64,000 nucleotides of DNA from Octopus vulgaris. Lineage: Eukaryota. This document shows positions 37,401 through 43,400 of the stretch, piece after piece. The stretch is taken from positions 34,162,001 through 34,226,000 of the forward strand of contig OX597825.1 in NCBI GenBank assembly GCA_951406725.2, written 5' to 3'. How positions within the stretch are numbered: the stretch's first letter is position 1; each line of letters opens with the position of its first letter. Position numbers: made by a program.

Positions 37401-40400
37401 GAAGTGCTGTCTCTAAAAGGGAATCCTATATTGATAAGCATTTATAAACAACTCTTCTGTTCTTCAGCGATATAAAATTTGAATTTTGTATAATATGATA
37501 ATATAAGTAATATGATAAAATGGTGTTTGGATGAAATATAAATTAAAAATTAAAAATTACTGTTTTTGATTTTGGTAAGTACACTTTAGTATGAGAGTCT
37601 TTAAATCCATATATGCTTCCTTGGAAAGTCTTCTGTAATAATCCATAATAGTTATGTGTAAAATCCATTATATTGTCCTGTATTCCAAATATAGTTCATA
37701 GACTTAGATAATATAGAATAATGGAATCCTATATTGATAAGCATTTATCGATAACTCTTCTGCTCTTCAGAAATATCAAATGTGAAATTTGTATAATTTA
37801 ACGAATCGTAGTTTATGCTGTATGTATAAATAATTTTAGTTCTTGTAAGGGGTTTTAGTAAATTGATATATTTTTCATAGATGAAGAAATAGTTTAATTA
37901 AAATAATAAAATTGAAGGTTATAGATTAAAAGTAACTTTATTTTTTGATATGGCATTAATAATGTATTTTCATTTGGGGATTTCAATTACTAGGATATTA
38001 ATTAAATTCAGCCTTTGCGATTAGGTTTTATGATCATTTTGATAGTATTGAATTTGGGGAGGATTTTTTTGTCGATGATGCTACTTTAAGTCGATTTTTT
38101 TTCATTCTTTGTTGCCCTTATTATTGTGGGTTTGGTTATTTCTATATTTTTTTGCTTATACATGAGGGGAGTTCAGGTATTCCTTTAGGCTTAAACAGTG
38201 ATTTACATAAGATTCCTTTTCATCATTATCATAGATATAAAGATGTTTTAGGTTTTCTTTTCACATTATTTGCATTAGTTGAATTAAGTTTATAAAATAG
38301 GATCCATTTTTTAATTGTTATGCCAAAAGTTGCTTGTTATGTTTATTTTCACACCAAATAATAAAAATAATGACTTGGTGCAGGAGTGGTAATTAGCTTG
38401 CTTACCAACCACATGATTCCGGGTTCATTCTCACTGCATGGCACCTTGGGCAAGTGTCTTTCACTATAGCCTTGGGCCGACCAAAGCCTTGTGAGTGGAT
38501 TTGGTAGACGGAAAGTGAAAGGAGCCCGTCATATATATGTATATATATATGTATGTATATATATATATATACATGTGTGTGTATATGTTTGTGTGTCTGT
38601 GTCTGTCTCCTCCGCCCCCAACATTGCTTGACAAAGTTTGGCAAAAGAGCCCTGATAGAATAAATACTAGGCTTACAAAGAATAAGTCCTGGTGTTGATT
38701 TGCTTGACTAAAGGTGGTGCTCCAGTATGGCCACAGTCAAATGACTGAAACAAGTAAAAGAGTAAAGAGTAAAAGGAGAGATAATTAATATAATCTTAGC
38801 CTGAAATTGGAGGGGAAGGGGTAGACAATTACATCGACCCCAGTGCGCAGCTGCTACATAATTTATCGCCCCCCGAAAGGATGAAAGGCAAAGTCAGAAA
38901 GGCAGAACGTAGTGGCAGGTGAAATACCACTATGCATTTTGACCAGCATACTAATGATTCTGCCAGTTCATCACCTTAATTAATAATTAAAATAATAAAT
39001 ACAACTGTTCAGCATCAAATATTGAACTGTGAATTATATTAAGGAAAATTAATCGAAGATATTAAAATTTAATAATTTAATGGAATTGAGCCTTAAAAAT
39101 ATTATTTCCAAATTTATTGTATGAAAAAATATCTCTTATTCTTATTTTTCCTTAATATAACGTATTACAAAAGAAAGACAAATAAAAGAATAAAATCAGG
39201 GTAAAAAAAAGATAAAAGGAAGAGAGAAAGAAAGAAAAAGAGAAGGAAGAGAGACAAAAGAAACATCAATGCAGTACAAAGTGCTACATTTGGTCTCACA
39301 CCACAAATTTTAAAGGAAACTACAGTTTGCCAAACCAATGTTTTATATAAACTATTATAACAGTTATGATTATAAATACTTGTTTATTTATAGGAGTGTA
39401 TATAAATTGTGTGGCAGGGGCTGGTATTTGTTTAATTATTTCAGTGAAAACATATTTCAAATATTCTATTAGGTTTTTGAAGTGTTGACACTGAGGGTTG
39501 TTTTATGTATCTGTTTTCTTTAGATATAATTAGATTGAATTTTTAGAAGAAAACACTTTCAAGTAAGTTATCTTAATCACTTATGGCAAGATTCCATATC
39601 AATATACATGCCATTTTTACCAGAGCATAAATCATTTTCAGCTGAATTTACATAATATCCTTCATTCTCAGTGAAACGTAAATCACTGTGAACAGTATCT
39701 GAGCCATTTTCATATTTATCATTTACATTTGAATATATATCCTTTTTAGCCATATACATATATTCTTCAACATTATCATCAACCATACATAAACCTTTTG
39801 CAATTGAATATACATCAGTGGAATGCAATTCCCTTTCCATCATGCAAGGATTATTTCTAATTGAATGTGCATTATTTGGGGGCAATATCTTTGCTGCTTG
39901 CTGTTTCAAAGTATTGTTTGGTTGTGATTCTATCTCCTCTGGTAAAAAGGTCCTTGTGGTCATCTTCTCGGTCATTTCTTCAGATATCACATTTGATTTG
40001 GATTTCTTGTACCTGTGTCTAAGAAAATGTTAGCATATTTAATCAGACAACATTAAGTAGATTTTAGAATTAAATTTTGTTAATAATCACAAAAAAAAAA
40101 TAATAATACTTCTTACTAATTTTGTTTTATAATGATAATGATGGTTTCAAAATTAGGAACAAGGCCAGTAATTTGGGGCTGGTTGTGAGTCAATTGGTAC
40201 ATATATTAACCCCAGAAGAATGAAGCACTAATTTAACTTCAGTGGTATTTGAACTTAGCATGTAAAGATCCAGAAGAAATGCTGCTAAATATTGTATTTA
40301 ACATGACAACAACTGTCAGTTTGATTAATCCTAATAATAATAGTAATAATCTTTTTTATAGGCTCATGGTCTGAAATTTGGGAGGAGAGGGTTAGTCAGT

Positions 40401-43400
40401 TGCAGTGACTCCAGTACTCAGTTGGATGAAAGGATGAAGGGTGAAGTTAGCCTTGATGGTATTTGAATGCAGAACATAAAACCAGAAGAAATACTGCTTA
40501 GTATTTCGTCTGACATGGTAACACTTCTGCTAACTTAACACCTTATCACAGCCTATGAAAAAAAAAGATGTGGTATGAGAAAACCCCAGAAGGAATCACC
40601 AAGATGAAAAGTGCAAAATCTTGTGGGATGCATTGATTCAGTGCAATCACCTGACCAGACATTGGAAACTGAACATTGTTGTGGTGGAAAAAAAAAGGAA
40701 GACCATGCATGATAATCAACATAGCATGACCCGGTGACAACAGGATCAAAGAGAAAGAAGAGAAACTGAACGACTACGACAATTTGAAGTGGGAAATACT
40801 AAGGTTGTGGTCAATTGAGAGAGAGTAGATATGTTACCGATAGTAACCGATGCACTTGGAAGTATCAGAACTCAACTACCAACTCAGATCAAAAGGATTG
40901 ATACAAATGTAAAAGTAGAAGAACCTAAAAAAATCATCATTGCTTGAAACTGCAAGAATTCTTTGCAATGTCCTTGAAGCATGACCAGCAAACAAGTGTC
41001 ACCTTAGTCTGCTGGCTGTGGTCAGCTGACACTTTCCATCATACCCAGCAAAATCATCACTGAGTTTTCATCAAACAATAATGATAATAATAATAATGAT
41101 ATTAATGATCTTGTTTTTATTGGCCACAAGATCTGAACACAAAACATACAGGGATGGTGCAATGCAAGGGTAGTTTAGCACAACAATTTGTACATACAAT
41201 TAAACAATAACAATTAACAACAAAAAATAAACAATAAAATTCTCCACATAATGGGAGTTCATCCTAAGGACAACCAAGGAACTCCACACATTTTCCTCAC
41301 CCTGACTTCCAAAGGCACCTCAAGCAAGCACCTCTCATCTTCTCAACCCTCCTGGCTTACAAGTGTATGTTCAGAGTAGGCCCATTCACATGGATCATCC
41401 TCACTACATTCACCCACCATTAAACAACAATACTAGGAGGCAGCACTTTCCTCAGCACCCTCATTTTCCTTTTCAAGTGGAACTTGAGAAAGTAAATGAG
41501 GGCTCAGCTGAAGAGAAAGTACCTGTCTTCAATCCTTTCAACCATGCCCACCACACTTCCTCTTTCGCCATAGCCATCAGACAGAGGAAAACTGCCTTCC
41601 CTTCGTGGCCAAAAGAAGATGGCAGGGTGATCCTCATGATGGAGTCGTCTGATAACCAGATTTGTCCTACATGCATCAACAGCTTTTTGACAATGCTCCA
41701 CAAATTTGAAATGAGTGCATGCAGAGAAGTTTCATTGCCCTATCCACATCTAGGACATGTCTGTCTGATGGCACTTCCAAGCTTGTAAAGCTTGTCTTGA
41801 ACTGGCAGAGCTCCCAGGTAACACTATTAGGCCAAGGATTTCTGGAAATTATAGATAGACTCCAGCCTGAAATTGCTCAATAATAGACCAGATAATTGAT
41901 CCTTCCTAGAATTCCTCTGAAGGCATCGTTGCTCTTGCCCACCACTAATCTTCTATAGAATTCCAATGTAGAATTTCCACTGACTACATTGCCTGACTAG
42001 CAGAGGGCTGTGAGACCCTGTTTACACTCCAGATGCAAAGTGCCCTTTCTTGATCTATGCTTAATCCAGGACTGTAGCTCCATCAATGAGACAAGCTCCA
42101 GAAAATCCTGACTGATAAATGGTGGGCACACCTGCTCACCATCAAGGTAGTGCTAGATGTGTTGCAGACTCAGTACATGTCTGCATATCATTAGCCATGG
42201 CATTCCCAGTCCCCCACTCAGCACCTGTTGACAGCAGATGGACCGACTGAGGAGTGAGACATGTCCCTTCCACAGGAAGTGGGAAGAGCAAGTGATCCAA
42301 CTGATCAACCAGAAAACAGGGCAAGGGACAACAGTCAGATAGTAGTAGATGACAGTAGTGATGACAGCTTTCTCTCTGCTTATTTCTGGGGGAGACTGGC
42401 TACCCAGTTTGTCACCCACTCCAAGTTCTTGTCTAACAGGAGGTCCAGACCAAACAAGACCCCAAGCAATTTAACCAGTCCTTCTGTCTAGTGTTCTACA
42501 AGTAAGATGTAGTCTTATATTACATACCTGGTAACTATGATGCATAATATACAAAGCAGGACTATTGTTGGTATAAGAACACTGCAAAGAATTACTGAAA
42601 TGTTAAGAGAAAAATGGAAAGCATTAAAAAAGAGAATTTGCTTGTTTGATTTTTGCTTCTTTAATGGTCAAACATTACAACAATTTGTAGCTTTTTTGTT
42701 ACCTTTAATATTATTTGAATTCATTCAAACACCATGAATCATTTTAATCACCTTTCATACTGTATTTAGGAGGAGAGCCATCTCAAATATTCTTTCTCTG
42801 AAGTCATTGTTCTGATGAACATTAACCCAATTTGCTGCTTTCTCACTCCTCACACATCTTCTGGACTGATTCGGGAGTCTGAGGTATTCTGTCATTCTGA
42901 ACAGTAGACACTGAATCCACACCTCCATCCAGTATGAAAGTAACTGAATTTACCACCAATCCACGCTGTAGGATCCTAGCAACTAATTACCAGAGAGCAA
43001 AAGAGACAAATCAAGGAATCAGCATGTAATTGCAACCAAATGTTCCTCGAATCACACTGTATCATCTTAAGAAGGTAAGAAACACTGCAAAAGCATGGAG
43101 TTAACCGAAAAAAGCAACTACCATCTAATCAATCTAAAACAGTTACAATAAGGACAGCTGTTATTTCACGAGACATTACTGTTTGTTAAAAAGATTGCTT
43201 CAAATCCATGTGATTCCAGGTTCAATCCCCCTCTGCAAAATCTTGGGTTGGTGAATAAATTACTTTTCCAATAGTTTTGTGTTGACCAATATCTTGTGAA
43301 TGGTAGACAAAAATTGCAATGAATTCTGTTGTTTATGCTATTTGTTGGTTTGTATGTCTGAATGTTTATATGTACATAGGTAGGTAGGTATGTACATATA

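What the first reader, a model, noticed from the sequence alone, without database searches (positions are those of the whole stretch)
39577..42594. LAT/CD28-like docking tail: three YxN and two YxxM motifs plus a TM CxxC
Seen: the ~147-aa tail has no enzymatic domain but carries YSNV, YENG and YVNS (YxN), YMYM and YIDM (YxxM), and DVYSIA, mostly in acidic context. The TM helix contains LCILC and is followed by basic RHRYKK. Established: pYxN binds the Grb2 SH2 domain and pYxxM binds PI3K p85; a juxtamembrane CxxC is palmitoylated in vertebrate transmembrane adaptors such as LAT. Inference: an invertebrate non-catalytic tyrosine-phosphorylated receptor coupling to Ras/MAPK and PI3K, convergent with vertebrate immunoreceptor adaptors.
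Basis: partly seen in the sequence, partly recalled or inferred. Interest (0 to 1): 0.75.

Follow-up and report, generated by a model that had tools for sequence, protein, structure and literature searches.

The report
Octopus membrane protein with tyrosine-motif tail
The last two exons of an octopus-only gene encode a membrane anchor and an enzyme-free, tyrosine-rich tail that resembles the signalling adaptors of vertebrate immune cells, but nothing yet shows that it works that way.

Summary
On the minus strand, a 67-nt exon (42594-42528) encodes a hydrophobic span with LCILC. A 442-nt terminal exon (40018-39577) encodes RHRYKK plus a 147-aa tail with YSNV, YENG, YVNS, YMYM, YIDM and DVYSIA. 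Splice sites and phases are canonical. Annotated proteins of Octopus sinensis and O. vulgaris match the tail at 82-92% identity, so the frame is coding.

The gene belongs to an Octopus-restricted tandem family. Members have cysteine-rich ~115-aa ectodomain repeats, a Ser/Thr stalk, a TM span and this tail. The repeats have no Pfam family and only a PLAT/LH2 lead. A 22-nt alternative first exon (42724-42703) would give a stand-alone protein with about 8 extracellular residues, as annotated in O. sinensis.

Language-model look-alikes of that short form are vertebrate transmembrane adaptors (SCIMP, GAPT, LIME1, LAT2, PAG, SIT). No homology threshold is met.

YSNV and YENG are kept in 5 of 6 tails. 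Both YxxM methionines and one YxN asparagine vary. The one divergent paralog lacks all five motifs.

A phosphotyrosine docking role is plausible (about 0.45) but unproven. The ectodomain fold could not be tested.

The parts
39577..40018 (-). Terminal coding exon: cytoplasmic tail (146 codons plus 1 leading base) and TAA stop. Carries all six Tyr motifs.
   Evidence: AG acceptor at 40020-40019. Matches Octopus proteins at 92% (P0005), 86% (P0007), 82% (P0002) and 88% (P0003). ATTAAA and AATAAA lie 140 and 188 nt after the stop.
42528..42594 (-). Transmembrane exon (67 nt): ILCSVLIPTIVLLCILCIIVT. The CxxC lies 4 and 7 residues before the Thr-Arg boundary.
   Evidence: AG acceptor, GT donor, lead TA, trail AG. 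tblastn 91.7% to P0002. Mean hydropathy about 2.5.
42703..42724 (-). Candidate alternative first coding exon: ATG..., MNSNNIK plus 1 base. An in-frame TGA sits directly upstream. GT donor, then a 108-nt intron to the TM exon. Would give a short form with about 8 extracellular residues.
   Evidence: Exact 7 of 7 residue match to the N-termini of O. sinensis P0005 and P0007. Donor and phase. No transcript data were seen.
47655..47762 (-). Ser/Thr-rich acidic stalk exon (IVKEPTIPYIPYGSTSNIITTTDDQTDSEENTSVV), phase 1 to phase 1, with an NTS sequon.
   Evidence: tblastn 91.7% to P0002 residues 65-100. Its trailing G with the TM exon's TA makes Val.
54464..54557 (-). Second exon of the ectodomain repeat (IYLMNLNTSATYRCSLDDPGAKIKGCQLKPE).
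   Evidence: Hit by an HMM of 12 domain instances, i-E 3.1e-12. tblastn 80.6% to P0002. Exon 1 of this repeat and the signal-peptide exon of this gene are not in the window.

Best explanation
These exons are the membrane anchor and cytoplasmic tail of one member of an Octopus-restricted, tandemly arrayed gene family.

Shown:
- The gene unit is built from phase-compatible exons: one or more ~115-aa cysteine-rich ectodomain repeats (two exons each), a glycosylatable Ser/Thr stalk, a TM exon and a tail exon.
- An alternative 22-nt first exon just upstream of the TM exon could produce the TM and tail alone.

Inferred:
- The tail is a disordered, non-catalytic scaffold.
- Its acidic, Tyr-dense distal half is phosphorylated by Src- and/or Syk-type kinases when the protein is clustered.
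- pYSNV, pYENG and pYVNS then recruit the Grb2/Drk SH2 domain, leading to the Ras-MAPK route.
- pYMYM and pYIDM may recruit the PI3K regulatory subunit.
- The two cysteines in the inner-leaflet half of the TM span are S-acylated and bias the protein to ordered membrane.

It works like a vertebrate transmembrane adaptor or a costimulatory-receptor tail, by convergence and not by descent. My own sub-estimates: some phosphotyrosine docking role 0.45, Grb2-type coupling about 0.3, PI3K coupling about 0.2.
For: Coding and splicing:
- A 150-codon open frame lies in 37% G+C DNA.
- All four acceptor and all four donor sites of these exons are canonical AG and GT, and the junction codons match the homologs (G+AT Asp, G+TA Val, AG+A Arg).
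- Annotated Octopus proteins match at 82-92% identity.

Architecture:
- The stalk before the TM span is acidic and RHRYKK follows it, which fits the positive-inside rule.
- LLC[IM]LCIIV[TI] is kept in the 5 database relatives that carry the TM span; RHRYKK follows it in 4 of them, and P0004 has SYKRFK instead.
- No catalytic domain is found.

Motifs:
- Eight Tyr lie in the distal 85 residues (9.4%).
- Three YxN and two YxxM occur together; shuffle p = 0.005, post hoc.
- YSNV and YENG are present in 5 of 6 family tails. Tyr is invariant at 7 of 8 distal sites in the 5 close tails.

Look-alikes:
- Feature search of the short form P0005 lists SCIMP 0.92, GAPT 0.89, LIME1 0.84, LAT2 0.82, PAG 0.81 and SIT 0.81. 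Orthopox A36R scores 0.89.
- Sub-threshold Pfam SCIMP hits occur on 4 of the 5 TM-plus-tail proteins scanned; P0004 has none.

Literature (passages read):
- NTAL and GAPT were themselves found by in-silico screens for YxN plus TM plus Cys. NTAL has no major sequence homology to LAT. LAX carries a YxxM p85 motif (PMC3342071).
- LAT is palmitoylated at Cys26 and Cys29 of a CxxC (PMC7655920).
- Src-family kinases and Csk are conserved across animals (PMC3492796).
Against: - There is no divergent background. The tail was found only in Octopus: 3 real hits plus 1 spurious among 1.84 billion representatives.
- Motif-critical positions are no better conserved than their neighbours (9 of 13 against 52 of 72, p = 0.72). 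Specificity residues are invariant at 2 of 5 against 59 of 80.
- Asn125 becomes Ile in P0005. Met90 becomes Ile in P0003, and Tyr87-Met88 are deleted in P0002. Met142 becomes Val in P0002.
- The only divergent tail, P0004, keeps the membrane-proximal block but lacks all five motifs.
- The best-conserved part of the tail is Tyr-free (residues about 26-66...ILPPNNAHSIRN.PCMME...).
- The shuffle p-values are modest and post hoc.
- AT-rich coding favours Asn, Tyr, Met, Lys and Ile.
- The CxxC lies inside the hydrophobic span, not after it.
- The feature-search tool itself warns that under 170 shared features, with only 5 of 10 best hits in one family, means the named family is probably wrong. It also warns that 0.9 is reached by 4-10% of shuffled proteins.
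- The presence of Grb2 and p85 orthologs in octopus was not checked here. I recall it as general for Bilateria.
- No phosphorylation, acylation or expression data were seen.
Confidence: 0.45

Rival explanations
1. The motifs are chance products of a young, fast-evolving, disordered, AT-biased tail. The family is real, but the distal tail has no specific SH2-docking function. Whatever function the tail has sits in the conserved Tyr-free membrane-proximal block.
For: - The most conserved block is Tyr-free, and it is the only part shared with the divergent paralog P0004.
- Specificity residues are invariant at only 2 of 5.
- Single-class shuffle p-values are 0.05 and 0.09.
- The tail has no relatives outside Octopus.
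- Annotated models are inconsistent between species.
Against: - 9.4% Tyr in a disordered acidic segment is unusual; it is 4.2% in the ectodomains.
- Tyr is invariant at 7 of 8 distal sites.
- The joint shuffle p is 0.005.
- The adaptor-class look-alikes are coherent.
Confidence: 0.3
2. The tyrosines are sorting signals: YxxPhi motifs with acidic clusters that are read by clathrin adaptor complexes. The protein would be an endocytic or recycling receptor whose ectodomain captures a ligand, and it would not be a signalling scaffold.
For: - YMYM, YSNV and YIDM fit YxxPhi in the window tail, and 3 to 5 such motifs occur in each of the five close tails.
- The context is acidic.
- In P0002 the change YIDM to YIDV, and in P0003 the change YMYM to YMYI, destroy YxxM but keep YxxPhi.
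- The long form has a stalked ectodomain.
Against: - YENG and YVNS do not fit YxxPhi, and YENG is among the best conserved (5 of 6).
- A single signal usually suffices for sorting, whereas eight clustered Tyr suggest a scaffold.
- P0004 has no YxxPhi apart from a juxtamembrane YKRF.
- The two roles are not exclusive.
Confidence: 0.2
3. The TM and tail exons are not part of a functional product in this genome. They would be a decaying duplicate or an annotation artefact in the relatives.
For: - The array is embedded in retroelement debris.
- The O. vulgaris models are partly chimeric. P0002 starts with a piece that matches a separate stretch of the window at 2961-3092. P0003 runs from a tail into the next gene's signal peptide.
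- This gene's first exons are outside the window.
Against: - The 150-codon frame is intact, all splice sites are intact and the phases are correct.
- The frame is kept in 5 database proteins from two species.
Confidence: 0.05

Closest known systems
Vertebrate transmembrane adaptor proteins (LAT, NTAL/LAT2, LAX, PAG, GAPT, SCIMP)
   Same: - Single TM span, cysteines at the cytosolic side of it, and an enzyme-free tail with several Tyr motifs, YxN among them.
- LAX also has YxxM.
- The short form would have an ectodomain of only a few residues.
- This is the class definition in PMC3342071 (passages read).
- These families are the feature look-alikes of P0005.
   Different: - No sequence homology. 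Pfam SCIMP scores 12.6-17.4 bits against a cut-off of 27, and no LAT, LAT2, PAG or GAPT model was hit.
- Restricted to Octopus.
- The cysteines lie 4 and 7 residues inside the hydrophobic span.
- The exons are also phase-compatible with a stalked ectodomain, which these adaptors lack.
- Nothing has been tested biochemically.
CD28 / ICOS costimulatory receptor tails
   Same: A short non-catalytic tail of a type I protein with a YMxM motif. ICOS YMFM binds PI3K but not Grb2, and CD28 YMNM binds both (PMC2193818, abstract in the search listing only).
   Different: - The octopus YMYM has no Asn, so the Grb2 and PI3K motifs are on separate tyrosines.
- The tail is about three times longer, with eight distal Tyr (the length of the CD28 tail is recalled).
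- No Ig-V ectodomain was detected.
- The Met at +3 is not kept in 2 of the 4 close database relatives.
Orthopoxvirus A36R (OPG164)
   Same: A feature look-alike at 0.89. I recall it as a membrane protein with a very short ectodomain whose tail tyrosines are phosphorylated by Src-family kinases and recruit SH2 adaptors.
   Different: It is viral and unrelated in sequence. The resemblance is to the same architectural class only. The score is below the tool's 0.9 lead threshold.
PLAT/LH2 beta-sandwich domains (for the ectodomain repeat)
   Same: - Feature look-alikes of P0009 residues 38-157 are PLAT/LH2 clusters, scoring 0.87-0.88 with 174-180 shared features. All ten best named hits fall in one family or clan.
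- The length is about 115 aa.
- By recall only, an N-terminal x-I-x-F-x-I ... SGTSNYF-V-Q-L pattern resembles the PLAT strand-loop-strand.
   Different: - No Pfam PLAT hit at E up to 10.
- No PDB sequence hit with a single sequence or with a profile.
- The repeat has six cysteines and N-glycosylation sequons, so it looks extracellular.
- UniProt's automatic name for one member is 'Ig-like domain-containing'.

Membership tests
Transmembrane adaptor protein class (architectural definition, PMC3342071) | Extracellular part of only a few residues | tested here: inconclusive
   A first exon giving MNSNNIK plus Val before the TM span exists in the window (42724-42703). It is the annotated start of 2 of 2 O. 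sinensis tail proteins. However, 3 of 3 O. vulgaris models join stalk or ectodomain exons to the same TM exon. No transcript data were seen.
Transmembrane adaptor protein class | Single transmembrane span followed by a cytoplasmic tail without enzymatic domain | tested here: met
   A 21-residue hydrophobic exon followed by RHRYKK. No Pfam family reaches its cut-off on the tail.
Transmembrane adaptor protein class | Juxtamembrane CxxC that is palmitoylated (present in LAT, NTAL, PAG; absent in LAX) | tested here: inconclusive
   C-I-L-C (or C-M-L-C) is present in the 5 database relatives that carry the TM span and in the window's TM exon. It lies inside the hydrophobic span, 4 and 7 residues before Thr-Arg. 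Acylation is not testable with these tools.
Transmembrane adaptor protein class | Several tyrosine motifs that are phosphorylated and bind SH2 proteins | not testable with these tools
   The motifs are present. Phosphorylation and binding need experiments. Conservation is uninformative.
Pfam SCIMP (PF15050), as homology | Score at or above the family's gathering cut-off (27 bits) | tested here: not met
   16.9, 17.4, 12.6 and 16.6 bits for P0002, P0003, P0005 and P0007. P0004 has no hit. There is no hit for the window's tail exon alone at E up to 1.
LAT / LAT2 / PAG / GAPT / LIME1 / SIT Pfam families, as homology | Any profile match | tested here: not met
   None of these appears among hits at E up to 10 for P0005 and P0007, or at E up to 1 for the other proteins. 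HMMER filters drop most hits above about 0.1.
CD28 family | Ig-V ectodomain and a YMNM-type dual Grb2/PI3K motif | tested here: not met
   No Ig family hit on the ectodomain proteins. The motif is YMYM, without Asn.
Commissureless (PF15957) | Score at or above the 27-bit cut-off | tested here: not met
   20.3 bits on P0005 only, which is 1 of the 5 TM-plus-tail proteins scanned. I saw no PPxY-type or LPSY-type motif (motif names recalled). The tail has LPPNNAH.
PLAT/LH2 domain (PF01477), for the ectodomain repeat | Profile match or PLAT beta-sandwich fold | tested here: inconclusive
   Sequence gave no Pfam hit and no PDB hit. The feature look-alikes are PLAT clusters at 0.87-0.88, which the tool rates as a lead only. 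The fold test was not possible.

The most novel reading that the evidence does not exclude
Octopuses have invented their own LAT/SCIMP-type adaptor, independently of vertebrates. An internal first exon would let the TM and tail exons of a receptor gene be made alone. The product would be an acylated membrane protein with about 8 extracellular residues and a Grb2/PI3K-docking tail. The same gene units, and neighbouring ones in the array, would make stalked or secreted PLAT-like ectodomain forms. One locus would then supply both the ligand-binding receptors and the stand-alone scaffold. This would be the first transmembrane adaptor of this class outside vertebrates.
Probability: 0.15. Interest if true: 0.7.

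Novelty: new variant of a known kind. Interest (0 to 1): 0.45.

Why it matters
As far as I recall, transmembrane adaptors of the LAT type are treated as a vertebrate immune-cell device. Three full-text searches found no paper on such a protein in cephalopods or other invertebrates.

A lineage-restricted octopus family with the same architecture would be a clean case of convergent evolution of phosphotyrosine scaffolds from short linear motifs. It is tandemly duplicated and sits beside a variable extracellular repeat. That makes it a candidate entry point into cephalopod cell-surface recognition, whether immune, chemotactile or neural.

It is directly testable with standard assays. If the motifs turn out to be inert, the locus is still a worked example of how easily such motif sets arise in AT-rich, disordered tails.

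Tried and rejected
No fold search could follow, and I used no other route.
Cluster members and source records stayed unseen.
- P0006 is a 1351-aa repetitive protein matched at 26% identity in 10 stretches. I rejected it as a compositional match.
- I considered the ORF at 43169-43513 (CPKFDEPT...) as a decayed stalk exon. The DNA alignment shares only a short GAACCAACTATT stretch, so I rejected it.
- A weak tblastn hit at 55192-55254 (YCWRLFF) was not confirmed by the domain HMM, so I rejected it.
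- An internal duplication in the distal tail is marginal: score 31, reached by 5% of shuffles.
- PDB sequence searches found nothing useful. The single-sequence search gave one hit at E 0.31, and the profile search gave none.
- tRNA and Rfam scans of the window gave 0 and 0.
- Long direct repeats are all repeat elements and do not involve the gene's exons.
- Paper searches: octopus with transmembrane adaptor and tyrosine gave 0. Cephalopod with immunoreceptor tyrosine-based gave 1, irrelevant. Octopus with PLAT domain gave 2, irrelevant. The six gene and protein identifiers gave 0. SH2 domain with Grb2 and Octopus bimaculoides gave 0.
- I did not use complex prediction, because phosphotyrosine-dependent binding cannot be posed to it.
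- I did not scan genome contigs, because it holds bacteria and archaea only.
- No supplementary files were consulted. Expression tables in octopus transcriptome papers could bear on the isoform question.

Full report
**What is in the sequence**

The window has 37% G+C, contains no N, and is full of TA/TG microsatellites. The feature lies on the minus strand. Stop-to-stop ORF listing shows a 150-codon open frame at 39577-40029.

I checked each exon border by script, translating each exon on its own:

| Exon | Coordinates (minus strand) | Borders | Lead / trail bases | Reads |
|---|---|---|---|---|
| Tail | 40018-39577 | AG acceptor, TAA stop | lead A | tail with six motifs |
| TM | 42594-42528 | AG acceptor, GT donor | lead TA, trail AG | ILCSVLIPTIVLLCILCIIVT |
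| Stalk | 47762-47655 | AG acceptor, GT donor | lead AT, trail G | Ser/Thr-rich, acidic |
| Ectodomain exon 2 | 54557-54464 | AG acceptor, GT donor | trail G | IYLMNLNTSATYRC... |

The split codons give Asp, Val and Arg, exactly as in the homologous proteins. The joined, spliced model was not built or searched, so no result here rests on a full-length protein from this window.

**Is it a gene?**

- The tail exon alone finds annotated proteins only from Octopus.
- Among longer proteins, 3 of 128 candidates pass: O. vulgaris P0002 at 82%, P0003 at 88% and P0004 at 73% over the first half.
- Among similar-sized proteins, 2 of 11 candidates pass: O. sinensis LOC118765596 (P0005, 92%) and LOC118765597 (P0007, 86%).
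- A full HMMER pass over 1.84 billion representatives gave 4 hits at E up to 0.001. Three are these Octopus clusters. The fourth is a repetitive 1351-aa protein that I reject as compositional.
- The frame is therefore coding, and the tail is restricted to Octopus as far as these libraries reach.
- By identity, the window comes from an octopus close to O. sinensis and O. vulgaris. Its ectodomain exon is 89% identical to O. sinensis but 76-77% to O. bimaculoides. I did not determine the species.

**The family and the gene unit**

tblastn of the O. vulgaris proteins onto the window and an HMM of 12 ectodomain instances place the gene's upstream exons as listed above. Exon 1 of the ectodomain repeat and the signal-peptide exon of this gene are not in the window.

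A second family member lies downstream on the same strand. Its signal-peptide exon is at 15341-15296 (MNRIFILLSLLQIVY). Its repeat exon 1 is at 5180-4936 (YCWRIKFYISSKFLSGTSNYF...).

Searching with that exon finds 6 of 48 candidates, all from Octopus. They carry one to four copies of a ~115-aa repeat with six conserved cysteines and NTS/NET sequons. Some have stalks between the repeats. Repeat and stalk modules begin and end in phase 1, so any number of them can be spliced in frame.

The repeat has no Pfam family and no PDB sequence relative. UniProt's automatic name is 'Ig-like domain-containing'. The feature search instead points to PLAT/LH2 clusters at 0.87-0.88, which the tool rates as a lead only. 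The fold test could not be run.

**Two possible products**

The two O. sinensis tail proteins begin MNSNNIK, then Val, then the TM span. The window has that exon letter for letter at 42724-42703. It has an in-frame TGA just before the ATG, a GT donor, and a 108-nt intron to the TM exon. Its trailing G makes the same Val codon as the stalk exon does.

So the TM and tail may be made alone, with about 8 extracellular residues. They may also be the end of a stalked type I protein, as in 3 of 3 O. vulgaris models.

Those models come from a pipeline that merges transcripts, protein alignments and ab initio predictions (PMC10700109, passages read). Two of them are visibly chimeric. I saw no transcript data, so the isoform question is open. 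I give the short form roughly 0.4.

**The motif reading**

In favour:
- Tyr is dense (8 in the distal 85 residues) in an acidic segment with no domain.
- Three YxN and two YxxM exceed composition-matched shuffles jointly at p = 0.005. This is post hoc, and the single classes give 0.05 and 0.09.
- YSNV and YENG are kept in 5 of 6 tails.
- The CxxC and the basic stop-transfer are invariant in the 5 database relatives that carry the TM span.
- Of the ten named look-alike rows for the short form, six carry names of vertebrate transmembrane adaptors: SCIMP 0.92, GAPT 0.89, LIME1 0.84, LAT2 0.82, PAG 0.81 and SIT 0.81.
- Review passages define that class by exactly this architecture. They note that NTAL and GAPT were discovered by in-silico screens for YxN plus TM plus Cys, and that NTAL lacks major homology to LAT (PMC3342071). 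LAT's CxxC is palmitoylated (PMC7655920). Src-family kinases and Csk are pan-animal (PMC3492796).

Against:
- The five close tails are 80-93% identical, so conservation says little.
- Critical positions are invariant at 9 of 13, against 52 of 72 for other distal positions (p = 0.72). Tyr is invariant at 7 of 8 against 54 of 77 (p = 0.28). Specificity residues are invariant at 2 of 5 against 59 of 80.
- Both YxxM methionines change, and one YxN asparagine changes.
- P0004, the only divergent tail, shares the Tyr-free proximal block but has none of the five motifs.
- That proximal block (ILPPNNAHSIRN.PCMME and its flanks) is the best-conserved part of the tail. It has no assigned function.
- No adaptor family model reaches its cut-off.
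- The feature search's own caveats apply.

**Verdict**

This is a real, lineage-restricted octopus membrane protein whose TM and tail have the architecture of a vertebrate transmembrane adaptor by convergence.

The Grb2-type motifs are the better candidates. The PI3K motifs are weak. YMYM is closer to the ICOS-type YMFM than to CD28's YMNM (PMC2193818, abstract in the listing only).

My estimates are 0.45 for a phosphotyrosine docking role, 0.30 for inert chance motifs, 0.20 for sorting signals and 0.05 for a non-functional copy. The locus is a new variant of a known kind and is of moderate interest until transcripts and phosphorylation are examined.

Noticed in passing
window 15296-15341 (-) and 4936-5180 (-): A second member of the same family lies downstream on the same strand. 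It has a signal-peptide exon (MNRIFILLSLLQIVY) and ectodomain-repeat exon 1 (YCWRIKFYISS...). One of the six conserved cysteines is replaced (DFNTL in place of DFCTP). The rest of this gene lies beyond the window start, and a small exon between the two was not located.
   Followed up: partly
window 42703-42724 (-): A 22-nt candidate alternative first coding exon (MNSNNIK) lies 108 nt upstream of the TM exon. It is identical to the start of two O. sinensis proteins. A tiny upstream ORF (ATG ATT CAT GGT GTT TGA) ends directly before its ATG.
   Followed up: partly
window 39820-39950 (-), tail residues about 26-66: The best-conserved stretch of the tail is Tyr-free (LPEEIE...NNTLKQQAA.ILPPNNAHSIRN.PCMME). 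It is the only part kept in the divergent paralog P0004. No motif or family explains it.
   Followed up: no
window 47655-47762, 54464-54557 and 4936-5180 (-): The ectodomain-repeat and stalk modules all start and end in phase 1. They can therefore be combined in any number. Annotated relatives carry 1 to 4 repeats, and some end right after a repeat (...KVIAM), as if secreted.
   Followed up: partly
window 2961-3092 (-): This stretch matches the first 44 residues of the O. vulgaris model P0002 at 79.5% (the first 33 are identical), about 50 kb away from the exons that match the rest of that model. Either that model's first exon is a chimeric addition or this is a dispersed repeat.
   Followed up: no
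window 57323-58417 (+): A 365-aa open frame has a PIF1-like helicase domain (E 1e-65) and a Pif1 2B domain. It lies inside the upstream intron or flank of the gene. I take it to be Helitron-type, from recall.
   Followed up: no
window 7924-9483 (-), 17659-19671 (-), 30689-32539 (-), 58872-59339 (+), 24331-24660 (-): Reverse-transcriptase ORFs (RVT_1, E 2.5e-29 to 8.9e-9) and an integrase zinc-binding fragment. The array is embedded in retroelement copies, some with long intact frames (520 and 671 aa).
   Followed up: no
window 60712-60910 and 61271-61469; 48113-48412 and 49576-49875: There are direct repeats of 199 nt at 100% identity and of 300 nt at 98% identity, separated by 559 and 1463 nt. 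They may be recent local duplications or the ends of an element.
   Followed up: no
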